From positions 3,355 to 67,354 of the forward strand of contig JAAZKV010000007.1 of assembly GCA_012799645.1 (NCBI GenBank): a stretch of 64,000 nt of DNA, given 5' to 3'. The stretch comes from Candidatus Iainarchaeum sp. GTDB lineage: Archaea > Iainarchaeota > Iainarchaeia > Iainarchaeales > JAAZKV01. The notes under the pieces were generated by a model. The model saw nothing but the letters and a program-made list of their open reading frames with translations, searched no databases and had not been told where the DNA came from. Of the stretch, positions 14,352 to 22,522 are shown piece by piece. How positions within the stretch are numbered: position 1 is the stretch's first letter; each line of letters opens with the position of its first letter. The translations under genes and the position numbers were made by a program.

Positions 14352-14627
14352 AACTTTTAGAAAAATTTTGATTGATGGTTTGTTAGTTGCTTTGCAACTA
14401 ATAAAACACTAAAATCCTTAATAATTAACACTCAACTCACTCATTTATTTGTTGAGTTGTGTCAATTTGACCAACAATATTGGTAATTAATTTCTCTATG
14501 ATTAGTATTAAAAGGATAAAGTTTTTGAAAACAAACGTGATGGTTTTTTTGGAAAAAACAAAAGAAAAACAAAGTAAGGTTTATATTCAATTAATTCATT
14601 CTATAAGTGCCTTTACTTAGTGATACG

Positions 14628-16145
14628 ATGTTTGACAAACAAACCCTAGGATTGCCTAATTTAAAATACTCTATTTACGAAGGAGCATTCTCAACAGTGC
14701 TCTTATCTTCAGCAGTTTCATTCATTGTTCCCTTCGCAGTATATTTGGGGGCTAGTGCTCTTGAAGTAGGGTTTATTACTGCGTTCCCCGCACTCCTAGC
14801 AGCGTGGGCACAATTATTTTCAATGTGGCTTTTAAAAAAATTTAAAACAAAAAAATGGTTAATTATAGGACTCGTAATTATTCAAGCATCCTTATTTATT
14901 CCAATCGCACTAATCCCTTTTATTTTTCAAACAAACCAAGTACTATGGTTAATCCTATTTTACACTTTGAGTTTGCTTATTGGAGCACTCGCTACCCCAT
15001 TGTGGAACAGTTGGATGAAAGAAATTATTCCTTCAAAAATTATTGGAAGTTATTTTGGTTTCAGAAACTCTGTTGTTGGAGGAGTGTCATTAATTTTCTT
15101 TTTAATTTTTGGATTCTCTCTAAAACTTTTTGAAATAGAATTAGCATTTATTTTTTTAGGAATTTTTTTAACCGCATCACTTAGTAGATTTATTGCGGCA
15201 ATAATTTTTACCAAAATAACTGAAAAGAAAAACAATGTTTTTTTTGAAAAAGAACAAAACTTTTTAGAGTTCGCAAAAGAACTAAAAAATAGTAATTTTG
15301 GAACATTTGTTTTATACGGATCACTAATGTCTTTCTCTATTGCTCTAACAGGACCATTCGTATCCTACCACTTACTAAACAACATTGGATTAAAAAATGA
15401 TTACATAATGTATACACTAATTATTTCTTCAACCCTAGTAGCAACACTAATCTCAATGCCTTATTGGGGAAAACTAATTGATAGATATGGAATGATAAAA
15501 GTACTAAAAGCGAGTTCGTTCCTTGTTGCACTATTCCCATTATTATATATTCTTGTAAGAATTCCGGAAGGATTAATTTTTGTTCAATTCCTTGACGGAC
15601 TCATATTCGCGGGATTTAATTTAGCCCTAGCTAATTTTGTATATAATGTATCAACTCAAGAAAAAATAATAAAATATGTGAGTTATCAATCAGTTTTTTT
15701 TGGAACCGGAACATTTTTGGGAGCGACCATAAGTGGAATAATTCAAAGCACTAACATAAATTTTTGGATTTTAACAAACGCATTTTTTGTGATGTGTTTA
15801 ATTTCATTTATACTAAGATACACTTTTTACAAAACCCTAATCAACAAAGTTAGTGAAGTTAAACAAGTGGAAAAAATCGCAAGCAAAAAAATTGTTTTCT
15901 CTGTAATTACTTTCACTCCAGTGTTTGAAGCAATTAATGAAACATTTATGCCTTTTGAAAATGGATTAAAAAAAATAGAGCTTAGTTTTGAAGAAAGAGT
16001 AAAATTGTTTGGAAAATTCATTGACTCAAGTGCAAAAAAACTAGATCATGGATTTGCAGAAACCTATGCTGAAATAAAAAAAGGCAACAAAAAAGAAAAA
16101 ATGATTAGCGGAATTAAAAGAAAATTTAAAAAAAAGAAAATTTGA
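14628..16145 (+). CDS. MFS transporter with a charged C-terminal extension
   Basis: About 12 TM helices in two 6-TM halves. ATG at 14628 follows agtgat. Confidence 0.7.
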   Translation: MFDKQTLGLPNLKYSIYEGAFSTVLLSSAVSFIVPFAVYLGASALEVGFITAFPALLAAWAQLFSMWLLKKFKTKKWLIIGLVIIQASLFIPIALIPFIFQTNQVLWLILFYTLSLLIGALATPLWNSWMKEIIPSKIIGSYFGFRNSVVGGVSLIFFLIFGFSLKLFEIELAFIFLGIFLTASLSRFIAAIIFTKITEKKNNVFFEKEQNFLEFAKELKNSNFGTFVLYGSLMSFSIALTGPFVSYHLLNNIGLKNDYIMYTLIISSTLVATLISMPYWGKLIDRYGMIKVLKASSFLVALFPLLYILVRIPEGLIFVQFLDGLIFAGFNLALANFVYNVSTQEKIIKYVSYQSVFFGTGTFLGATISGIIQSTNINFWILTNAFFVMCLISFILRYTFYKTLINKVSEVKQVEKIASKKIVFSVITFTPVFEAINETFMPFENGLKKIELSFEERVKLFGKFIDSSAKKLDHGFAETYAEIKKGNKKEKMISGIKRKFKKKKI

Positions 16146-16251: not shown

Positions 16252-17322
16252 TCACAACAACAATTTTCCTTTTTCCATTATTTTTTTATCATCAAAATAA
16301 ACAGTTGGTTTTGTTACAACATTATCAAAATGGCCATTGCAGTAATTATTTCCACCCAAATGTTTGTTGTTTCCTATTGCGAAATGTATTGTACCGAGTG
16401 TTTTTTCATCACAAATCATTGCTCCAACAATACTTGCTTTCCTATTTGTTCCAATCGCAAATTCAGCAATTGTTCTAACCTTGTTTTTATAATCACTAAT
16501 TTTTTTTAATTTATTTACTTTTTCAACATAAATCAAATTATCATTAATTTTTTTAGAATTTGTTTTAACGAGTAATCCATTTTTGAAAATAAATTTTATT
16601 GGTTTTTTTGGAACAATTGTTTTTCCACTAATTTTTGCGCTTGATACAAAAATTACTCCATTAGCGGAATCTTCAATAGGGGCAACATAAACTTCTCCCA
16701 CTGGATAATTTGTTGAATACGCTCTCCAATTAGCATCATTACAAATAACTTCGCGAGAAGAATCAAAAGATAGTTCCAAATTAGATCCTATTGGACAAGT
16801 GATTTTTATTTTCTTAGTTACTTTCATCAAATTTTTTATTTTTTCATTTAACTCTTTAACCTCTTTTTCATTATGATCAAACGCGGTTAAAAAATTATTC
16901 ACTTTTTTTGGGTTTAATGAACCTAGTCCTCCAAGAGAAACCATTCTAAACCCGTTTTTTTTCATTAAATTTCTCATAAGCACTTGTTTACCATTAACAA
17001 CAATGTGTCCTCTATTTCCTGAACCAACTGAAATAAATATTTCATTTTTTGAGAGTGAAAGAATAGCGTTAATTGTTTTTTTTGGAGCTGGCGCAATATT
17101 TGTTCGTGGCGGATCAACAATTAAAGAAACCCCGCACCCCATTTTTTTTAGTTCTAAATAAATTGTTTTCGCGATTCTTGGCGCAATTGTTTTTCCAGAA
17201 TCAGTCCAAATTAAAATATTTGAAGAAGGAGTTATTTCGTACAATCTGAAAACTTTTTTCAAAGCAGGTAATGAAATTATTTTTACTTTCTCTAGTTTTT
17301 TTATTTCATCAATTTGAATCAT
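16252..17322 (-). CDS. Aminopeptidase, M29 (AmpS/PepS, aminopeptidase T) family
   Basis: YPVGEVYVAPIEDSANGVIFV and EFAIGTNRKA...CDEKTLGTIHFAIGNN motifs. Confidence 0.7.
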   Translation of the reverse strand: MIQIDEIKKLEKVKIISLPALKKVFRLYEITPSSNILIWTDSGKTIAPRIAKTIYLELKKMGCGVSLIVDPPRTNIAPAPKKTINAILSLSKNEIFISVGSGNRGHIVVNGKQVLMRNLMKKNGFRMVSLGGLGSLNPKKVNNFLTAFDHNEKEVKELNEKIKNLMKVTKKIKITCPIGSNLELSFDSSREVICNDANWRAYSTNYPVGEVYVAPIEDSANGVIFVSSAKISGKTIVPKKPIKFIFKNGLLVKTNSKKINDNLIYVEKVNKLKKISDYKNKVRTIAEFAIGTNRKASIVGAMICDEKTLGTIHFAIGNNKHLGGNNYCNGHFDNVVTKPTVYFDDKKIMEKGKLLL

Positions 17323-17416
17323 CACTACTCAATCCCCCACTTAATTAAAATTTATTTAAACTTTATTCAAAATTTAAACTTTATTCAAAATTTAAAATCT
17401 ATTAAAAATTTAAACT

Positions 17417-18541
17417 TTATTTAAACTCTGGTAAATATTTTGGTTTTTTTAATCCATCAACATCAAACACTAGTGGAGCATCTTCTATTGCATATCTTCC
17501 ATAAAACAAATCCTCAATTGAACGATCTTTCAAATACTCTTTCACACTCAAATAACCCTTTAAGTACACATTGTCTTTTGTGAATGCTCCTTTTTCTTCT
17601 TGAGAATGAATTCCTCTTTTTGCTCTAAAAGTCAAATTATATGCATCTTCTTTTGAAAAATACTGAGTCAAACTAATGAAAGTATCATAAAAATTCTTTT
17701 TTAAAGCTAAATTAATTGCAACTACTCTTCCAGCATAATTTTTTAGTTGAAGATCAGTATTGATTTTCTTTTTCTCTTCCACATAAACAGCTAACCCTTC
17801 TTCGGTTTTTAGTGTTTCTTTTGATAATCCTTTTGCAAAAATCAAATATGGTTGACGCACCCCATTTTCGTAACGATAAATATGGGATTCAATTTCGTGC
17901 GCAATTAATCTTTTCAAAGATTCTTTTGTAAAAACATAATCTTGGTTAATGAAAATATTTTTTGTCCTAATATTAACTGAAAAACTAGAACTTGAATGTG
18001 GTCGCATAGTGATTTTGTATTTTAGTTTTTTCTTTTTTAAAAAACTATTAATCACTTGTTTTGCTCTATTCATTGAAATTGTTTTTGATTTGAATTTGGT
18101 TTCTTTTTGAACTAACTCTTCAGCTAATTTCAAGGCACTTTTATCTATTGAACCATAATAACTTTCTGAATTTGTTGAAAAATTTGCTGTTCCCACACTT
18201 CTCACAAGTTCTAATCTATCAAACAAATCTAATAGTTTTCTTTCATAAATTAAACCCAAACTATCTCTTCCAACTTCTGATAAGAGTTCTTTTAATTCAT
18301 TTTTATAAACATTAAATGTTGGCGATACAGAGAAATAATTAAACAACGGATTTCTTGGTGCGTAAATAAATTTTGGATTATACTCTTCTTTTTTTTCTAG
18401 TTCTGCAAAAAATCTTTTTTTTTCTTCAGAAAAATTTTGTGGAAAAGTATATGATAAGATGTTCGAGCTAAGTGAAGAGGATAGTTGGCAAACTTTTTGA
18501 TCAAGCAAAATATAATCCGTGAAATAAATAAAAACCACCAA
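17417..18541 (-). CDS. DUF1704 / MATCAP-like zinc metallopeptidase (QEGLA-motif family)
   Basis: HEIESH (HExxH) followed 34 aa later by TEEGLAVYVE (EEGLA third-ligand motif). No ATG is available, so the start is GTG, TTG or ATT near 18541-18508. Confidence 0.65.
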   Translation of the reverse strand: MVVFIYFTDYILLDQKVCQLSSSLSSNILSYTFPQNFSEEKKRFFAELEKKEEYNPKFIYAPRNPLFNYFSVSPTFNVYKNELKELLSEVGRDSLGLIYERKLLDLFDRLELVRSVGTANFSTNSESYYGSIDKSALKLAEELVQKETKFKSKTISMNRAKQVINSFLKKKKLKYKITMRPHSSSSFSVNIRTKNIFINQDYVFTKESLKRLIAHEIESHIYRYENGVRQPYLIFAKGLSKETLKTEEGLAVYVEEKKKINTDLQLKNYAGRVVAINLALKKNFYDTFISLTQYFSKEDAYNLTFRAKRGIHSQEEKGAFTKDNVYLKGYLSVKEYLKDRSIEDLFYGRYAIEDAPLVFDVDGLKKPKYLPEFK

Positions 18542-18663
18542 AAAAATTTATTTACAATAATACCAATTCACAACAATATTAATTCACAACAATATTAATT
18601 CACAATAATATTAGAATGAAAACTAATATTTATACTAAACTAAAAAGAAATTAGTGTGCGTTT

Positions 18664-19608
18664 TTACTTTTTCGTTTCTTCATTTTGTACTTTTTTTCCT
18701 TTCACTGATAAATATCTAACCCACTCGTGCACTATCGTGTTTCCCAAATACTTCATAAATGGCCCTGGCATAAAATTCACTTCTATCACAACCCATTTGT
18801 TTTTGTGTTGCATTAAATCCACTGCACAAATATCCATCCCTAATTCTTTTGCAGCATTTTGTGCTATTGAAATCATTTCAGGAGTGGGATTGATTAGTTG
18901 AGCGGATCCCCCTCTTGAAATATTTGCTCTCCAATCCCCTTTCTTTGAAGTTCTTTTAACTGTTAGTACAAGGTTTCCAATTACATAACACCTAATATCA
19001 AAGTTTTTTCCTTTAATGAATTTTTGTGTGCAAATAAATTCTTCAAACAAATTAACCGCATCAAGAATACTCTCCATTTGATCATTGTTGTTTATCAAAA
19101 CAACTCCTTTTCCTGCAAACCCAGAAATTAATTTCATTACAAAAGGAAAACCTGTTTCTGATACAGCCATTTGTGCTCTTTTTGATGATATAAAAAAAGT
19201 GCTTGTCACTCCGGGCAACCCTTTATTTGATAATATTTGCGAAGTAAAAAATTTGTGATTTGTCATATGAAATGATTTTAGTGAAACAGGAGAGTAAGAA
19301 TCGCTTGACTCTATTATTTTAAGCACTGATTCTGCTAAGAAAAAATCTTTTGAAGAAACTCTTGGATAAATAACATCAAAACACAACAAGTTTTTTCCTT
19401 TATAAAAAAGACCCGCGCCTTGTTCTGATGTTTGAATTTGAATTTTGTTTATTGGGACAACCAACACATTAGAGAATTTTTTTTGAGCTTCAGAAATTAG
19501 TGATTTTATTGTGGATAATTTTGCTCCTTTTGAAGAAATTATTACAAGTGATGGGCCAACTATTTTTGGTTCTTTTTGGGTTTTGGTTTTTGTTAATTGT
19601 TTTTTCAT
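18664..19608 (-). CDS. RimK/LysX-family ATP-grasp alpha-L-amino-acid ligase
   Basis: FPFVMKL..GFAGKGVVL, DIRCYVIG, GDWRANISRGGSA, ICAVDL....VVIEVNFMPG. All core RimK signatures are present. Confidence 0.8.
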   Translation of the reverse strand: MKKQLTKTKTQKEPKIVGPSLVIISSKGAKLSTIKSLISEAQKKFSNVLVVPINKIQIQTSEQGAGLFYKGKNLLCFDVIYPRVSSKDFFLAESVLKIIESSDSYSPVSLKSFHMTNHKFFTSQILSNKGLPGVTSTFFISSKRAQMAVSETGFPFVMKLISGFAGKGVVLINNNDQMESILDAVNLFEEFICTQKFIKGKNFDIRCYVIGNLVLTVKRTSKKGDWRANISRGGSAQLINPTPEMISIAQNAAKELGMDICAVDLMQHKNKWVVIEVNFMPGPFMKYLGNTIVHEWVRYLSVKGKKVQNEETKK

Positions 19609-20519
19609 TTAAAAAACCTCCCAAAAATAGTTTTTGAAAAAATACTTCTAATATCCTTTAATTCTGAAAAAATACTTTTTCTTTTTATCTCATTTTCTTT
19701 ACTTAAATAAAAATCAACAATTCTTGATTCAATATCAGCGGAACAAATTTTGTTAAAATTTTTTAAGTTAATGTTTGGTTCTATTGAGATTACTCTTCCC
19801 TTCACTAAATCAACTTTTGCAATATCAAGACCTATTACTTTTGTCGCATTGAGCACATTTTCTTTATCACTATCAGGTAATTTGTAATACTCTCCTTTAT
19901 CAATTGGAACAACTACTTGGTCTTTTGTTTTTCTTTTCACTGAAAAAACTTCATCTCCAACAACAATACAAGAAATTACTGGCTCATCAATATACTCTCT
20001 TAACATAAATCCTTCAATATCACTCTTTATACTTTTAACAAAAGAATTTAGTTCTTTCCCATTATTTGCTATTATTGCTTGTTGTGCTTTTTTTCCAACA
20101 AAAGATTTTACAAGAAGAGGGTAAGAAATATTTTTTGATACTCTTTCAATGTTTTTCCCAGAACCTGAAGTCAATGTTTTTGGGGTTTTTACATTATTTA
20201 TTGCAAGAGAAACAAAAGTGTATGGTTCATTATCACTCAAATAATATGATCCTTTTTTTGAATTAACATAAAAACCTTGATTTGTTAATTCTTCAAGTAA
20301 TGGTTCTACAAAAGGAGCTAGAGAGGATCGCGCTTGTAAAAACACTGCATCAAAATTATCAATATTTGAACCCACAAGTTTTATTTCGGTCTTATCTTTT
20401 TTACTAACAAGCATAACTTTTGATAAGCGTAAATATTTTGCAGTAATTCCTTTTTCTAAAAATGCTTTGACAAAATTTTCCGCGATTTTTTTCTTTTCAG
20501 CTAAAACAAGTACTCTCAA
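19605..20519 (-). CDS. Divergent RimK-like ATP-grasp paralogue
   Basis: YPLLVKSFVGKKAQ, ISCIVVGDEV, IAKVDL...SIEPN retain the fold and metal-ligand pattern, but the RxNxxxGG loop is absent. The stop overlaps the next gene's start (ATGA). Confidence 0.6.
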   Translation of the reverse strand: MRVLVLAEKKKIAENFVKAFLEKGITAKYLRLSKVMLVSKKDKTEIKLVGSNIDNFDAVFLQARSSLAPFVEPLLEELTNQGFYVNSKKGSYYLSDNEPYTFVSLAINNVKTPKTLTSGSGKNIERVSKNISYPLLVKSFVGKKAQQAIIANNGKELNSFVKSIKSDIEGFMLREYIDEPVISCIVVGDEVFSVKRKTKDQVVVPIDKGEYYKLPDSDKENVLNATKVIGLDIAKVDLVKGRVISIEPNINLKNFNKICSADIESRIVDFYLSKENEIKRKSIFSELKDIRSIFSKTIFGRFFK

Positions 20520-20595: not shown

Positions 20596-21006
20596 ATGGA
20601 TAAAAGAAAAAAACTAATAGGGCTTGTTGAAGTTGTAGAAATATTTGGTTCAAAAGGGAGTGTAAAAAAAAGAGCATTATTTGATACTGGAGCAACAAGA
20701 TCTTGTGTTGATGTAAAAGTCGCGGCAAAAGCAGGGATAGGGCCAATTGTTTCAAGTGTTAGAATAAAATCAGCAAGTGCTCCAAAAGGATACACAAGGA
20801 GAGCAATAGCTGAAGCAGTTATTAGGATCAAAGATAAAGAAGTGAAAGCGAGAGTGAATATTGAGGATAGAGAAGGGCTCCCTTACTCTGTACTAATTGG
20901 AAGAGACATAATTCACGAAAACTTTTTGATTGATGTTAGTAAAAGTAATAAAAGCATAAAGTCAATTGATTTAAGAGAGAGGGAAAAAAATGAATATGTT
21001 TATTAA
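20596..21006 (+). CDS. Retropepsin-like aspartic protease (DUF785 / RimK-associated, RimB-like)
   Basis: FDTGATRSCV (D-T-G-A active-site signature) and LIGRDII near the C-terminus. 136 aa. Confidence 0.65.
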   Translation: MDKRKKLIGLVEVVEIFGSKGSVKKRALFDTGATRSCVDVKVAAKAGIGPIVSSVRIKSASAPKGYTRRAIAEAVIRIKDKEVKARVNIEDREGLPYSVLIGRDIIHENFLIDVSKSNKSIKSIDLREREKNEYVY

Positions 21007-21496
21007 TCCAGTAAAAGAAAAAAACAAAAAAACCATTAATATTGAATTTGAAAAACTAAAACACCACGATCTGACAACAATTGAAGAACTACATAATTTG
21101 TTTCCTTTTTGGAAAAGAAACTCTATTTTGAAAAAACTAAAAAAAACTGAAAAAGAAAAAGATATTAGATTCATTGCAAAAATTGATGGAAAAATAGTTG
21201 CGCACGTAAAATACATTTTGGGGAAAAGCTTACACAAACACAGAGTGGAAATGGTTTCTTTAATGGTGGAAGAAAATAATCGAAGAAAAGGAATAGCAAA
21301 AAAACTTGTAAATTACTCTCTAAAAAACCTTCCTGAAGAAAAAACACTTGTAATACTAGCAGTTGATAAAAAAAACAAACCAGCAATTAATTTGTACAAA
21401 AAACTAGGATTCAAAGAACACGGATTACTAAAAAAAGCATCAATAGTTGATGGAAAATATGTGGATAATTTATTAATGAACAAAAAAATTAAATAA
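20990..21496 (+). CDS. GNAT family N-acetyltransferase
   Basis: Motif A RRKGIAKKLV, NKPAINLYKKLGF. Overlaps the upstream protease gene by 17 nt. Confidence 0.8.
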   Translation: MNMFINPVKEKNKKTINIEFEKLKHHDLTTIEELHNLFPFWKRNSILKKLKKTEKEKDIRFIAKIDGKIVAHVKYILGKSLHKHRVEMVSLMVEENNRRKGIAKKLVNYSLKNLPEEKTLVILAVDKKNKPAINLYKKLGFKEHGLLKKASIVDGKYVDNLLMNKKIK

Positions 21497-21607: not shown

Positions 21608-22144
21608 ATGTTTTATAACTTTTTAAAACCAAGAAAAGCGTTTGAAGAAGCTCTCGCAAACGAAAATCTTAGTGATGCGTGGATTATTGCTTTATTAACA
21701 GGAGTAATGTTTGGGATCAGTGCTTGGCTTTTTTCTGGAGAAACATACCCTGCAATTGGAATGACCATTTTAATGATTTTACAATGGGTAATTTTAGCAG
21801 GAATAATTTATGTTTTTGAATTTATGATGAAAAATAAAAAGAAAAGAATAGCCGAAAGAAGTTTTGGAGAAATCATTTCTGCAACAGGAAAACTATGGGA
21901 ACTTGTGTTAATACTTTCAATATTATTAATTGCAAGCATTGTAATAAAACACGAATTAATTTCAATAACAATTTGGATATTATTAACAATCATTGGAATA
22001 CTCTTTTTGTACAATTTATTCATTTTATTAAAAGTTGTTTTAGACGCAAAAAACTTACGAACTTTTGTTAGTTTAATTTTAGTACTAATTATACACACCT
22101 TATTAACCCAATTTGTTTTGATGATAATGGGAATAATTTTGTGA
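21608..22144 (+). CDS. Integral membrane protein (Yip1-like topology)
   Basis: 178 aa with 4-5 predicted TM helices and an N-terminal cytosolic segment. Confidence 0.5.
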   Translation: MFYNFLKPRKAFEEALANENLSDAWIIALLTGVMFGISAWLFSGETYPAIGMTILMILQWVILAGIIYVFEFMMKNKKKRIAERSFGEIISATGKLWELVLILSILLIASIVIKHELISITIWILLTIIGILFLYNLFILLKVVLDAKNLRTFVSLILVLIIHTLLTQFVLMIMGIIL

Positions 22145-22300: not shown

Positions 22301-22522
22301 ATGAAAAAGACATGCAGTGATTGTAAAACTCGTTTCGAGGTAAAACTTGAAGATATTGAAGAAGGAGACCACGTGAATTGCCCAGAATGCAACTTGGAAT
22401 ACACTTTAATTTATGATTCTAATGGTAAAGAAAAACTAGTAGAAACAAAAGTTCTTGAAATGGAAGATGATGAAGACGAAGACGATAATGAATACAGCGA
22501 TTACGATTCTTACAATGATTAA
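22301..22522 (+). CDS. LysW-like zinc-ribbon protein with an extended acidic C-terminal tail
   Basis: CSDC...19 aa...CPEC; EVKLEDIEEGDHVNCPECNLEYTLI parallels the LysW pattern. The tail is LEMEDDEDEDDNEYSDYDSYND. Confidence 0.55.
   Translation: MKKTCSDCKTRFEVKLEDIEEGDHVNCPECNLEYTLIYDSNGKEKLVETKVLEMEDDEDEDDNEYSDYDSYND

What the first reader, a model, noticed from the sequence alone, without database searches (positions are those of the whole stretch)
17417..20519. DUF1704 (MATCAP-family) metallopeptidase directly downstream of paired ATP-grasp ligases: a ligase/carboxypeptidase pairing analogous to tubulin tyrosination and detyrosination
The 374-aa protein carries HEIESH and, 34 residues later, TEEGLAVYVE. 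This is the gluzincin arrangement and the QEGLA-type motif that define DUF1704, the family that includes the eukaryotic tubulin detyrosinase MATCAP. It sits 122 bp downstream of, and co-directional with, two RimK-like ATP-grasp genes. ATP-grasp ligases (TTL/TTLL in eukaryotes, RimK in bacteria) add C-terminal Glu or Tyr, and a DUF1704 enzyme would be the natural eraser. Seeing both in one apparent archaeal operon suggests that the writer/eraser logic predates tubulin.
Basis: partly seen in the sequence, partly recalled or inferred. Interest (0 to 1): 0.65.

Follow-up and report, generated by a model that had tools for sequence, protein, structure and literature searches.

The report
Archaeal glutamate-ligase cluster with MATCAP-type trimming peptidase
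A tiny archaeon keeps a relative of the human tubulin-trimming enzyme MATCAP next to a RimK-type amino-acid ligase, and the same pairing (often fused into one protein) recurs across many bacteria and archaea, which suggests that this peptidase family works by removing residues that such ligases add.

Summary
Window 18541..17417 (-) encodes a true MATCAP/DUF1704 peptidase: Pfam E=4e-47, and human MATCAP is the only strong structural match. It lies 122 bp downstream of two overlapping RimK-like genes.

Corrections:
- The metal motif is HExxxH, as in MATCAP.
- The upstream ATP-grasp copy has lost its catalytic motifs in all orthologues; only the 314-aa copy looks like an active RimK.
- The locus is larger than reported. 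It also holds an M29-like aminopeptidase downstream and, divergently, a RimB-like retropepsin (the known RimK eraser), a GNAT, a membrane protein and a 73-aa zinc-ribbon protein with an acidic tail.

The ligase/peptidase link is not chance. Of 108 species-level genomes with a MATCAP homologue, 20 fuse it to an ATP-grasp domain and 17 have an ATP-grasp gene adjacent. These involve four different ATP-grasp families in separate MATCAP clades.

Best reading: a RimK/RimB-type acidic-residue ligation and trimming module, with MATCAP as the C-terminal exopeptidase. The substrate is unknown (protein tail or free poly-glutamate). The tubulin analogy is reasonable as logic but untested as ancestry.

I rate it a new variant of a known kind, with moderate-to-high interest.

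The parts
19605..20519 (-). Paralog A: a RimK-like ATP-grasp protein (304 aa) that is catalytically degenerate. Likely a non-catalytic partner of paralog B.
   Evidence: PF08443 E=2.5e-13; TIGR00768 scores 63 bits against a cutoff of 143. Alignment of 8 orthologues shows loss of the Gly-rich loop, the W-R-x-N-x-S-R-G-G motif and the Mg-binding Asn (compare RimK alignment). It overlaps gene B by 4 bp.
18664..19608 (-). Paralog B: a RimK-family alpha-L-glutamate-type ligase (314 aa) with catalytic motifs intact.
   Evidence: TIGR00768 rimK_fam E=1.1e-43, 149.6 bits, above the 143.4 cutoff. Best PDB hits are E. coli and Pseudomonas RimK (E=2e-31), well ahead of ArgX/LysX (1e-13 and weaker). GDWRANISRGG and VIEVNFMPG are conserved.
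18542..18663 (-). 122-bp AT-rich spacer between the ligase and MATCAP genes. It holds a T-run and a 16-bp x4 tandem repeat (18546-18613).
   Evidence: Such intergenic tandem repeats occur all over the window, so they are not specific to this locus. In relatives the spacer is 39-132 bp.
17417..18541 (-). MATCAP/DUF1704-family HExxxH metallocarboxypeptidase (374 aa from TTG; 373 aa from the next GTG, as called in public data).
   Evidence: PF08014 E=4.2e-47. Motif alignment to human MATCAP. AF2 model plus Foldseek. Family-invariant residues H215, E216, H220, R223, N226, Q230, T246, E248, K308 and G310 are all present. An identical 373-aa protein, P0001, is in the public collection.
16252..17325 (-). 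M29-like aminopeptidase (357 aa), fourth gene of the array.
   Evidence: PF02073 E=3.1e-9, 36.6 bits, above the cutoff of 27. Homologues carry PF02073+PF26233 and are named aminopeptidase. It takes the same position after MATCAP in L129 (4-bp overlap) and L130, and lies further downstream in L053 and L118.
20596..21006 (+). RimB-like retropepsin aspartic peptidase (136 aa), divergent from the ligase genes across a 76-bp spacer.
   Evidence: PF05618 E=2e-7, 31.4 bits, above the cutoff of 27. Catalytic FDTGATRS is present. It holds the same divergent position in L001, L126, L129, L053, L058 and L118.
20990..21496 (+). GNAT N-acetyltransferase (168 aa). It overlaps the RimB-like gene by 17 bp.
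   Evidence: PF00583 E=4.7e-16; weak RimI similarity. Conserved next to the RimB-like gene in L001, L126, L129 and L118.
21608..22144 (+). Multi-pass membrane protein (178 aa). A syntenic companion; role unknown.
   Evidence: No Pfam hit. Orthologues in L001, L118, L126 and L058. The L126 orthologue has a weak Yip1 hit.
22301..22522 (+). 73-aa zinc-ribbon protein with a disordered acidic C-terminal tail. Candidate acceptor or substrate (inference only).
   Evidence: Conserved in the same position in L001, L126 and L058, with 8 further close homologues. Tails end in D or E, mostly with a D-[YF]-[DE]-[ST]-[DE] motif. Only weak similarity to CSL/DPH3 (E=3e-3) and LysW (E=1.5 against PDB; NF041070 21 bits against a cutoff of 75).

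Best explanation
The locus is an archaeal (Iainarchaeota, DPANN) version of the RimK/RimB type of module, which ligates and trims acidic residues. It is enlarged by two exopeptidases.

Shown:
- Gene B is a RimK-family ATP-grasp ligase with intact catalytic motifs.
- Gene A is a degenerate paralogue, translationally coupled to B.
- The MATCAP-family protein has every catalytic and family-invariant residue of human MATCAP, and the same fold.
- A RimB-like retropepsin with an intact DTG motif, a GNAT and an M29-like aminopeptidase are conserved members of the cluster.
- MATCAP homologues are fused or adjacent to ATP-grasp ligases in many unrelated lineages.

Inferred:
- B, probably as an A/B hetero-oligomer, uses ATP to add alpha-linked glutamate (or another acidic residue). 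The acceptor is either the C-terminus of a protein or a free peptide, giving poly-alpha-glutamate as RimK does.
- The RimB-like endopeptidase cuts poly-acidic runs.
- The MATCAP-like enzyme removes ligase-added residues one at a time from the C-terminus, i.e. acts as a deglutamylase, as the eukaryotic TMCP/MATCAP enzymes can.
- The M29-like enzyme degrades released peptides from the N-terminus, and the GNAT may cap N-termini.

The net effect would be adjustable length or turnover of an acidic peptide tag or polymer. The substrate is not identified. The neighbouring 73-aa zinc-ribbon protein with an acidic tail is only a candidate.
For: Family and fold of the peptidase.

RimK identity of B and degeneracy of A.

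The cluster is conserved down to 48% MATCAP identity, with 4-bp overlaps A/B and MATCAP/M29 in L129.

A differently arranged A+B+MATCAP locus, with an AstE/AspA-type deacylase, occurs in another DPANN phylum (Nanohaloarchaeota).

Species-level sample:
- 20 of 108 MATCAP genes are fused to an ATP-grasp domain and 17 of 108 have one adjacent, 16 of those within 100 bp; 0 of 12 control blocks do.
- 28 ATP-grasp ORFs lie within 2 kb of MATCAP, where 3.2 are expected (P about 2e-17).
- In unbiased clustering of neighbours, the top non-housekeeping families are 7TM-transglutaminase and ATP-grasp ligases.

Triple fusions ATPgrasp_ST/RimB-like/MATCAP.

The linkage involves four ATP-grasp families (RimK, RloC-like ATPgrasp_ST, GshB-like, a 480-aa ATP-grasp_3) in separate MATCAP clades.

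Literature:
- RimB is a poly-Glu-specific endopeptidase that removes RimK-added glutamates and stimulates free poly-alpha-Glu synthesis (PMC11957791).
- TMCP1/2 (MATCAP family) remove polyglutamylation (PMC10499314).
- rloB and rloC deletions suppress the loss of RloA peptidases (PMC11957051).
Against: - No biochemical data exist for any prokaryotic MATCAP homologue.
- 71 of 108 MATCAP loci show no ATP-grasp neighbour in the visible block. The blocks are short (median shortest flank 1 kb), but L003, L127 and L128, with 8-9 kb flanks, are truly solo. The family therefore also works outside such modules.
- In the window, 122-bp and 91-bp AT-rich spacers with T-runs separate MATCAP from its neighbours, so co-transcription here is not shown.
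- Archaea lack bS6, the only proven RimK protein substrate (established knowledge).
- The amino acid that B adds is inferred from family membership only.
- Conserved synteny within Iainarchaeota also includes CysRS and a Na+/H+ exchanger, so synteny alone is weak evidence for the zinc-ribbon, membrane-protein and GNAT genes.
Confidence: 0.55

Rival explanations
1. Small-molecule acidic peptide metabolism. The GNAT makes an N-acetyl amino acid, the RimK-type ligase extends it with glutamate, and MATCAP and M29 degrade it. The product would be an N-acetylated di- or oligopeptide used as an osmolyte or counter-ion, comparable to mammalian NAAG (made by the RimK-like enzymes RIMKLA/B, hydrolysed by glutamate carboxypeptidase II) or the bacterial NAGGN trio of GNAT/ATP-grasp enzyme, amidotransferase and M42 peptidase. 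Those two comparisons rest on my own knowledge.
For: - The GNAT overlaps the RimB-like gene and is conserved in the cluster.
- An aminopeptidase (M29) is translationally coupled to MATCAP in L129. An aminopeptidase cannot act on a protein's C-terminal tag.
- Weak hits of both B and the GNAT to TIGR03103, N-acetylglutaminylglutamine synthetase.
- Type C loci pair MATCAP with glutathione-synthetase-like ligases and an FGase domain, which look like small-molecule enzymes.
- The Rlo system is tied to osmotic stress (PMC11957051).
Against: - The TIGR03103 hits are far below cutoff (18-20 bits against 569).
- An N-acetylated peptide would resist an aminopeptidase.
- RimB-type enzymes need at least 5 contiguous Glu (PMC11957791), which argues for polymers rather than dipeptides.
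- No amidotransferase or exporter is conserved in the cluster.
Confidence: 0.15
2. Carrier-protein logic, as in LysW. The 73-aa zinc-ribbon protein would be an amino-group carrier. The ATP-grasp enzyme would load an amino acid onto its acidic C-terminal tail, and a peptidase (MATCAP or M29) would release the product, as LysX and LysK do in lysine and arginine biosynthesis.
For: - Zinc ribbon plus acidic tail with an aromatic residue near the C-terminus, conserved beside the cluster.
- Weak LysW-model hits (NF041070 E=2.5e-4; PF21344 E=7e-3).
- LysX and ArgX belong to the RimK family and appear among B's hits.
Against: - The LysW hit is 21 bits against a cutoff of 75. Against PDB, LysW has E=1.5, and CSL/DPH3 zinc fingers score better.
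- There is no EDWGE motif.
- B is much closer to RimK (2e-31) than to ArgX/LysX (1e-13 and weaker).
- None of the ten neighbouring genes scanned with Pfam and NCBIfam is a LysZ, LysY or LysJ-type modifying enzyme.
- The carrier candidate is four genes away on the other strand, and homologues were found only in close relatives.
Confidence: 0.1
3. A tubulin-like single-residue cycle. The ligase adds, and MATCAP removes, a terminal aromatic residue (Tyr or Phe) on a specific protein tail. This would be a direct prokaryotic counterpart of tyrosination and detyrosination.
For: - NCBI names homologues 'tyrosine/phenylalanine carboxypeptidase domain-containing protein'.
- The zinc-ribbon tails carry a conserved Tyr or Phe a few residues from the end.
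- The catalytic core is identical to that of human MATCAP.
Against: - The ligase is RimK-type with the RimK signature motifs, and Pfam reported no TTL hit.
- The conserved aromatic residue is genetically encoded and is not C-terminal. The tails end in D or E.
- A poly-Glu-specific RimB-type peptidase is present.
- MATCAP-family enzymes also remove Glu (PMC10499314).
Confidence: 0.07
4. A graspetide-like RiPP cluster. ATP-grasp enzymes would cross-link Ser/Thr and Asp/Glu side chains in the tail of the small protein, the GNAT would acetylate it, peptidases would mature it, and the nearby MFS transporter (14607-16145) would export it.
For: Two ATP-grasp genes, a GNAT, peptidases, a small protein with a Ser/Asp/Glu-rich tail and an MFS transporter resemble microviridin-type clusters. 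The comparison rests on my own knowledge.
Against: - The graspetide maturase model TIGR04187 scores 20.9 bits against a cutoff of 350, whereas rimK_fam is above its cutoff.
- One ATP-grasp copy is degenerate.
- Tail sequence and length vary, unlike conserved RiPP cores.
- The 'leader' would be a folded zinc ribbon.
- The MFS gene is not part of the cluster in L001, L126 or L129.
Confidence: 0.04
5. No functional link. MATCAP would be a general housekeeping carboxypeptidase that happens to lie beside the RimK genes because of frozen synteny in a small genome.
For: - Many MATCAP homologues are solo and sit among translation genes such as PTH2, TyrRS, SRP54 and ArgRS.
- Iainarchaeota synteny also preserves unrelated genes such as CysRS.
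Against: - Domain fusions with ATP-grasp and RimB-like modules.
- Adjacency in several phyla with different ATP-grasp families and different gene orders.
- Strong enrichment statistics.
Confidence: 0.05

Closest known systems
RimK/RimB (RimABK) ribosomal protein S6 polyglutamylation system of Pseudomonas (PMC11957791)
   Same: A RimK-family ATP-grasp ligase with intact signature motifs lies next to a RimB-like retropepsin with an intact DTG motif. This is the ligase plus dedicated-peptidase logic. RimK/RimB fusions are known in that system, and fusions also occur among the relatives found here.
   Different: - The host is archaeal, and archaea lack the bS6 substrate.
- There is no RimA (EAL) gene.
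- There is an extra degenerate ATP-grasp paralogue.
- There are two extra peptidases (MATCAP-type and M29-like) and a GNAT.
- No MATCAP-family partner is mentioned in the RimB and Rlo papers read here, and no paper in the searchable library co-mentions MATCAP with RimK or ATP-grasp.
RloABC operon of Pseudomonas aeruginosa (retropepsin RloA, 7TM inactive transglutaminase RloB, ATP-grasp RloC; PMC11957051)
   Same: In CPR bacteria, relatives of the window's MATCAP are fused to an RloC-type ATP-grasp domain (PF14397) and a RimB/RloA-like domain, and sit beside a 7TM_transglut gene. The genetic logic is the same: a peptidase counteracts the ATP-grasp product.
   Different: - The window has no 7TM-transglutaminase gene (my HMM found none).
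- Its ligase is RimK-type rather than RloC-type.
- Its RimB-like protein is a short 136-aa ORF; secretion signals were not tested.
- In most fusions the retropepsin domain has lost its DTG motif.
Eukaryotic tubulin tail cycle: TTL/TTLL ligases versus MATCAP (TMCP1/2), VASH and CCP peptidases (PMC10499314; PDB 7Z5G, 7Z6S)
   Same: The peptidase is a true homologue of MATCAP, with the same HExxxH...TEEGLA...RAKRG core and fold. The partner is an ATP-grasp peptide ligase that acts on C-terminal acidic sequences. MATCAP-family enzymes also deglutamylate.
   Different: - There is no tubulin or microtubule context.
- The ligase is RimK-type, not TTL-family.
- Sequence identity to human MATCAP is only about 19% in the structural alignment.
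- Tyrosine specificity is unknown.
- Descent of the eukaryotic pair from such a cassette was not tested.
LysW/LysX/LysK amino-group carrier system
   Same: A small zinc-ribbon protein with an acidic C-terminal tail, a RimK-family ligase and a releasing metallopeptidase.
   Different: - The zinc-ribbon protein fails the LysW model (21 bits against 75) and lacks EDWGE.
- The ligase is closer to RimK than to LysX.
- No LysZ, LysY or LysJ genes lie nearby.
- The releasing enzyme here would be MATCAP or M29 rather than M20.

Membership tests
MATCAP / DUF1704 (Pfam PF08014) | Profile match above the Pfam gathering score over most of the domain | tested here: met
   161.3 bits against a cutoff of 27, covering residues 44-372 and profile positions 3-345 of 365.
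MATCAP / DUF1704 (Pfam PF08014) | HExxxH zinc and catalytic motif, plus a downstream Glu in the (T/Q)EEGLA motif | tested here: met
   H215-E216-x3-H220 and T246-E-E248-G-L-A. These are invariant in a 40-sequence alignment and align to HEIGTH and TEEGLA of human MATCAP.
MATCAP / DUF1704 (Pfam PF08014) | Fold of human MATCAP (PDB 7Z5G) | tested here: met
   AF2 model pLDDT 91.8. Foldseek top hits are 7z5g and 7z6s (E=4e-9 to 1e-8, probability 1.0, TM 0.56-0.64); the next family has E>0.02.
MATCAP / DUF1704 (Pfam PF08014) | Metallocarboxypeptidase activity on C-terminal Tyr or Glu of acidic tails | not testable with these tools
   Needs an enzyme assay. Activity is known only for eukaryotic members (PMC10499314).
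NCBIfam TIGR02421 'QEGLA motif protein' (equivalog) | Score above the equivalog cutoff, and a QEGLA motif | tested here: not met
   166.1 bits against a cutoff of 338.65; the motif is TEEGLA. The protein is a family relative, not that equivalog.
RimK family alpha-L-glutamate ligases (TIGR00768 / PF08443) | Score above the subfamily cutoff and intact ATP-grasp catalytic motifs (gene B, 18664-19608) | tested here: met
   149.6 bits against 143.4. E. coli RimK 4iwx E=2e-31. The Lys/Gly-rich loop, GDWRANISRGG and EVNxxPG are conserved.
RimK family alpha-L-glutamate ligases (TIGR00768 / PF08443) | The same features for gene A (19605-20519) | tested here: not met
   63.4 bits against 143.4. The Gly-rich loop, the R-x-N...RGG motif and the Mg-binding Asn are lost in all 8 orthologues. 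The fold family is retained (PF08443 50.5 bits, above 21).
RimK family alpha-L-glutamate ligases (TIGR00768 / PF08443) | ATP-dependent addition of alpha-linked L-glutamate | not testable with these tools
   Needs an ATPase and LC-MS assay.
RimABK system | RimB-type retropepsin with catalytic Asp, encoded beside rimK | tested here: met
   PF05618 31.4 bits against 27; FDTGATRS present; divergent neighbour of the ligase genes.
RimABK system | Substrate is ribosomal protein bS6 (RpsF) ending in Glu-Glu; RimA EAL regulator present | tested here: not met
   None of the ten neighbouring genes scanned has an EAL domain. By established knowledge bS6 is bacterial and absent from archaea. The whole genome was not available.
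RloABC-type cluster | A 7TM inactive-transglutaminase gene (PF14402) next to a PF14397 ATP-grasp gene and a retropepsin | tested here: not met
   My 7TM_transglut HMM has no hit anywhere in the 64-kb window. It is met in relatives L004, L009, L021 and others.
LysW/LysX amino-group carrier system | LysW model above cutoff with a C-terminal EDWGE-type motif, a LysX-type ligase and LysZ, LysY, LysJ, LysK genes | tested here: not met
   NF041070 scores 21 bits against 75; LysW in PDB has E=1.5. Tails end in ...DYDSD-like sequences. TIGR02144 LysX scores 102 bits against 275.6. None of the ten neighbouring genes scanned is a lysine-pathway gene.
Graspetide (microviridin-type) RiPP clusters | Graspetide ATP-grasp maturase model, and a conserved core peptide | tested here: not met
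   TIGR04187 scores 20.9 bits against 350. The tail sequence is variable.

The most novel reading that the evidence does not exclude
The MATCAP family arose as the hydrolytic half of prokaryotic cassettes that pair an ATP-grasp ligase with a peptidase, and the eukaryotic tubulin detyrosinase/deglutamylase descends from such a cassette. In this archaeon the cassette would reversibly extend and trim the acidic, aromatic-containing C-terminal tail of a small zinc-ribbon protein, giving a prokaryotic 'tail code' with its own writer (RimK-type B with pseudo-enzyme A), endo-eraser (RimB-like) and exo-eraser (MATCAP-like).
Probability: 0.15. Interest if true: 0.8.

Novelty: new variant of a known kind. 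Interest (0 to 1): 0.6.

Why it matters
MATCAP/TMCP enzymes were recognised only in 2022-2023 as tubulin detyrosinases and deglutamylases. Their prokaryotic relatives have no assigned function: NCBI names them by homology only.

Recurrent fusion and adjacency to peptide-forming ATP-grasp ligases, and to the poly-Glu-specific RimB-type peptidase, give these relatives a concrete and testable function. The prediction is that they remove residues added by the ligase.

The finding also adds a missing exopeptidase to the RimK/RimB and RloABC systems, which affect ribosome function, osmotic tolerance, biofilm formation and antibiotic sensitivity in Pseudomonas. It shows that RimK-type modules exist in archaea, which lack the only known protein substrate.

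Finally, it offers a route to test whether the eukaryotic tubulin-tail machinery reused an older prokaryotic ligase/peptidase partnership.

Tried and rejected
- The search for related loci with the 40-sequence MATCAP alignment failed because no stretch was conserved enough. I replaced it with a hand-built fixed-spacing pattern, H-E-[ILV]-x2-H-x2-R-x2-N-G-x2-Q. It was validated on the loci already held and on the window and then scanned over genome contigs.
'No ATP-grasp seen' is therefore an undercount, and the sample is not exhaustive.
- The 2009 Iyer/Aravind amidoligase paper (PMC3268129) might already mention this association, but it is not held. Literature searches for DUF1704, MATCAP+ATP-grasp and MATCAP+RimK returned nothing relevant.
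- The LysW identity of the zinc-ribbon protein was considered and rejected as membership. A homologue search for that protein returned only 8 close relatives, so its wider distribution remains unknown.
- A sequence search of the M29-like protein against PDB gave no hit. The family assignment rests on Pfam and on annotated homologues.
- The tandem repeats in the spacers before the MATCAP and M29 genes looked like possible operators. The whole window is full of similar intergenic repeats, so they are not locus-specific.
- The sigma-70 promoter scanner was not used because the host is archaeal.
- Long 'N-terminal extensions' of some MATCAP ORFs in high-GC bacteria are stop-to-stop artefacts with no Pfam domain, except for the FGase fusion in L027.

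Full report
**1. What is at the coordinates**

The window has about 29% G+C. Public homologues are named Candidatus Diapherotrites or Iainarchaeum archaeon, so the host is a DPANN archaeon.

On the minus strand there is a co-directional array:
- 20519..19605, 304 aa, 'A'
- 19608..18664, 314 aa, 'B', overlapping A by 4 bp
- a 122-bp spacer
- 18541..17417, 374 aa
- a 91-bp spacer
- 17325..16252, 357 aa

Pfam assigns A and B to the RimK-like ATP-grasp family, the third protein to PF08014 MATCAP (E=4.2e-47, its only hit), and the fourth to Peptidase_M29.

Across a 76-bp spacer, on the plus strand, lie:
- a RimB-like retropepsin (20596-21006; PF05618, above cutoff)
- a GNAT that overlaps it (20990-21496)
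- a membrane protein (21608-22144)
- a 73-aa zinc-ribbon protein with an acidic tail (22301-22522)
- a 201-aa basic protein, and CysRS

**2. The peptidase is a true MATCAP-family enzyme**

- phmmer against all PDB sequences finds only human MATCAP. The aligned motifs are HEIESH/HEIGTH, TEEGLA/TEEGLA, RAKRG/RAKRG and KDxVYLxG.
- A 40-sequence alignment shows H215, E216, H220, R223, N226, Q230, T246, E248, K308 and G310 as invariant.
- The AF2 model is confident (pLDDT 91.8, pTM 0.89). Its only strong Foldseek matches in PDB are human MATCAP chains (E=4e-9, TM 0.56-0.64).

The motif is HExxxH, as described for MATCAP/TMCP (PMC10499314). The two motifs are 25 residues apart. The NCBIfam QEGLA equivalog cutoff is not reached.

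**3. The 'paired ligases' are one ligase and one degenerate paralogue**

B passes the rimK_fam cutoff. It is far closer to E. coli and Pseudomonas RimK (2e-31) than to ArgX/LysX (1e-13 and weaker). It keeps the ATP-binding Lys and Gly-rich loop, GDWRANISRGG and EVNxxPG.

A has lost the Gly-rich loop, the R-x-N...RGG motif (with a 3-residue deletion) and the Mg-binding Asn. This holds in all eight orthologues, including one from another phylum. Given the conserved 4-bp overlap with B, A is best read as a non-catalytic partner. That reading is an inference.

**4. The cluster is conserved and tightly packed in relatives**

The block [Zn-ribbon][membrane protein][GNAT][RimB-like] <-> [A][B][MATCAP] recurs in Iainarchaeota at 59%, 57% and 48% MATCAP identity (L001, L129 and L126), and in L053, L058, L061, L115 and L118.

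The fourth gene varies:
- M29-like in the window, L129 and L130. In L129 it overlaps MATCAP by 4 bp.
- A second MATCAP in L001, L061 and L115.
- A third ATP-grasp followed by the M29-like gene in L053 and L118.

At least 13 M29-like homologues appear to share contigs with MATCAP homologues, judged by matching longest-contig lengths.

In the Nanohaloarchaeota locus L007, an A-like gene, a B-like gene and MATCAP are again together but arranged differently. An AstE/AspA-type (M14-like) deacylase lies alongside.

More distant DPANN homologues (34-38% identity) are solo.

**5. The ligase/peptidase association extends far beyond this lineage**

An exhaustive HMMER search of 1.84 billion representatives gave 1952 relatives with E<=1e-3. 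About 10 of the best 150 are 775-837-aa fusions. Pfam shows an N-terminal PF14397 ATP-grasp domain (the RloC type), a central RimB-like domain and a C-terminal MATCAP domain.

In the Saccharibacteria contig L004 such a fusion follows a 7TM-transglutaminase (RloB-like) gene. It is followed in turn by three more ATP-grasp genes and a second MATCAP.

I scanned one genome per species with a fixed-spacing back-translated motif. Of 120 blocks returned, 108 hold a true MATCAP ORF and 12 are chance matches, which serve as controls. Using HMMs built in-session, the results were:
- 20 MATCAP genes are fused to an ATP-grasp domain, plus one cut at a block edge.
- 17 have a separate ATP-grasp gene adjacent, 16 of them within 100 bp.
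- 71 show none, but the median shortest visible flank in those blocks is only 1 kb.
- None of the 12 controls has one.
- 28 ATP-grasp ORFs lie within 2 kb of MATCAP (322 kb of DNA). Only 4 lie in the 402 kb further away or in control blocks, and all 4 belong to the same clusters. The Poisson P is about 2e-17.

In unbiased clustering of all neighbouring ORFs, the top families after MATCAP itself are 7TM_transglut (18 loci) and RimK-like ligases (12 loci). Housekeeping translation genes follow, along with a further 480-aa ATP-grasp_3 family (6 loci).

The partner ligase differs by clade:
- RimK-type in Iainarchaeota and Nanohaloarchaeota, and in one cyanobacterium
- RloC-type in CPR bacteria and some MAGs labelled Gammaproteobacteria
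- glutathione-synthetase-like in Alphaproteobacteria and Gemmatimonadota (in L027, an unclassified bacterial MAG, with an FGase-MATCAP fusion)
- ATP-grasp_3 with a radical-SAM gene in Planctomycetia, Omnitrophota and Elusimicrobiota

A rough neighbour-joining tree places these contexts in separate MATCAP clades. The coupling is therefore recurrent, not one inherited arrangement.

**6. How it most likely works**

Literature:
- RimK adds alpha-linked Glu to the C-terminus of bS6 and also makes free poly-alpha-Glu.
- RimB is a retropepsin-like endopeptidase specific for runs of at least 5 Glu. It removes the tail and stimulates polymer synthesis, and RimB-RimK hybrids exist (PMC11957791).
- In P. 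aeruginosa, deleting rloB or rloC suppresses the defects caused by loss of the RloA peptidases (PMC11957051).
- Eukaryotic MATCAP-family enzymes remove C-terminal Tyr and Glu and shorten polyglutamate chains (PMC10499314).

Combining these with the anatomy above, the best-supported model is as follows. B, with A as partner, builds acidic peptide extensions. The RimB-like enzyme cuts them internally. The MATCAP-like enzyme trims them from the C-terminus. The M29-like enzyme and the GNAT deal with N-termini of released or free peptides.

The shown steps are the family, fold and motif assignments and the genomic coupling. The chemistry and the substrate are inferred.

The zinc-ribbon protein is a reasonable acceptor candidate. 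Its fold is conserved and its tail is acidic, mostly with a D-[YF]-[DE]-[ST]-[DE] motif and a terminal D or E. However, its link to the cluster rests on lineage-restricted synteny that also includes unrelated genes. It fails LysW membership.

The presence of an aminopeptidase argues that at least part of the flux is free peptide. That is why the small-molecule/polymer reading is kept as the main rival.

**7. Comparison with known systems, and novelty**

The module works like RimK/RimB and, in its bacterial relatives, like RloABC. It is not a member of either as defined: it has no bS6, no RimA and no 7TM-transglutaminase here.

The peptidase is a member of the MATCAP family, but the ligase is not a TTL. 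The tubulin analogy therefore holds at the level of logic (ATP-grasp writer, MATCAP-type eraser, acidic C-terminal tails). Common descent of the pair is untested.

No paper in the searchable library links MATCAP/DUF1704 to RimK or ATP-grasp enzymes. An older comparative-genomics paper that might mention the link could not be read. I therefore rate the finding as a new variant of a known kind.

**8. Limits**

- My neighbour HMMs were built in-session. Representative ORFs of the neighbour clusters and several ATP-grasp neighbours were checked against Pfam.
- The tree is a quick NJ tree.
- Co-transcription in the window itself is not shown, because both spacers are AT-rich with T-runs.
- There are no functional data for any prokaryotic member.

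Noticed in passing
L004:3474-5876 (also L009, L021, L030, L045, L055, L060, L062, L066, L071, L085, L089, L090, L102, L108, L110, L111, L116): Proteins of about 770-830 aa in CPR/Patescibacteria and in some MAGs labelled Gammaproteobacteria carry three domains: an RloC-type ATP-grasp (PF14397), a RimB-like retropepsin and MATCAP. They almost always follow a 7TM inactive-transglutaminase (RloB-like) gene. In 8 of 10 fusion representatives checked the retropepsin domain has lost its DTG catalytic motif, so MATCAP may be the only active hydrolase.
   Followed up: partly
L004:5906-10678: Downstream of the fusion, a Saccharibacteria contig carries three further ATP-grasp genes and a divergent 575-aa MATCAP paralogue. 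Together they look like a multi-ligase, multi-peptidase operon.
   Followed up: no
L027:5186-7885 with L027:4143-5210; also L020, L059, L104: A deep-branching MATCAP clade (Erythrobacter, Kordiimonas, a Gemmatimonadaceae MAG and an unclassified bacterial MAG, L027) is followed by an overlapping glutathione-synthetase-like ATP-grasp gene. In L027, MATCAP is fused to an N-formylglutamate amidohydrolase (FGase) domain.
   Followed up: partly
L011, L016, L067, L074 (and L079): In Planctomycetia, Omnitrophota and Elusimicrobiota, MATCAP lies next to a 480-aa ATP-grasp_3 protein and a 503-aa protein with no Pfam match. Three of the four loci also have a radical-SAM (spore-photoproduct-lyase-like) gene. 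L079 has the radical-SAM gene only.
   Followed up: no
window:22301-22522: The best PDB matches of the 73-aa zinc-ribbon protein are eukaryotic Kti11/DPH3 CSL zinc fingers (E=0.003). Those are also small and acidic-tailed. The match is below Pfam's cutoff, so its significance is unclear.
   Followed up: partly
window:19605-20519: The upstream RimK-like paralogue has a conserved C-terminal extension (...KTIFGRFFK-like, basic and hydrophobic) that is absent from the active paralogue. It could be a membrane- or partner-binding helix.
   Followed up: no
window:17354-17425, 18546-18613 and many other intergenic sites: Short tandem repeats (12-25 bp units, 3-8 copies) fill a large share of the intergenic spacers throughout the 64-kb window. 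This looks like a genome-wide habit of this AT-rich archaeon rather than a feature of this locus.
   Followed up: partly
L004, L006, L019, L022, L024, L069: A TyrRS/TrpRS-class (PF00579) aminoacyl-tRNA synthetase gene lies near MATCAP in six loci from different phyla. PTH2, SRP54, ArgRS and a DRG-type GTPase also recur as neighbours. This may only reflect the dense housekeeping content of small genomes.
   Followed up: no
window:27723-30167: This is the only other ORF of at least 50 aa in the window with an acidic C-terminal tail (815 aa, ending ...NEPIDEEEQE). It could be another ligase acceptor. It was not characterised.
   Followed up: no
L007:101-1135: In the Nanohaloarchaeota locus, the RimK pair and MATCAP are accompanied by a succinylglutamate-desuccinylase/aspartoacylase-type (M14-like) enzyme with a biotin/lipoyl-like C-terminal domain, and by a P-loop protein. 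This is another hint that the chemistry involves glutamate.
   Followed up: no
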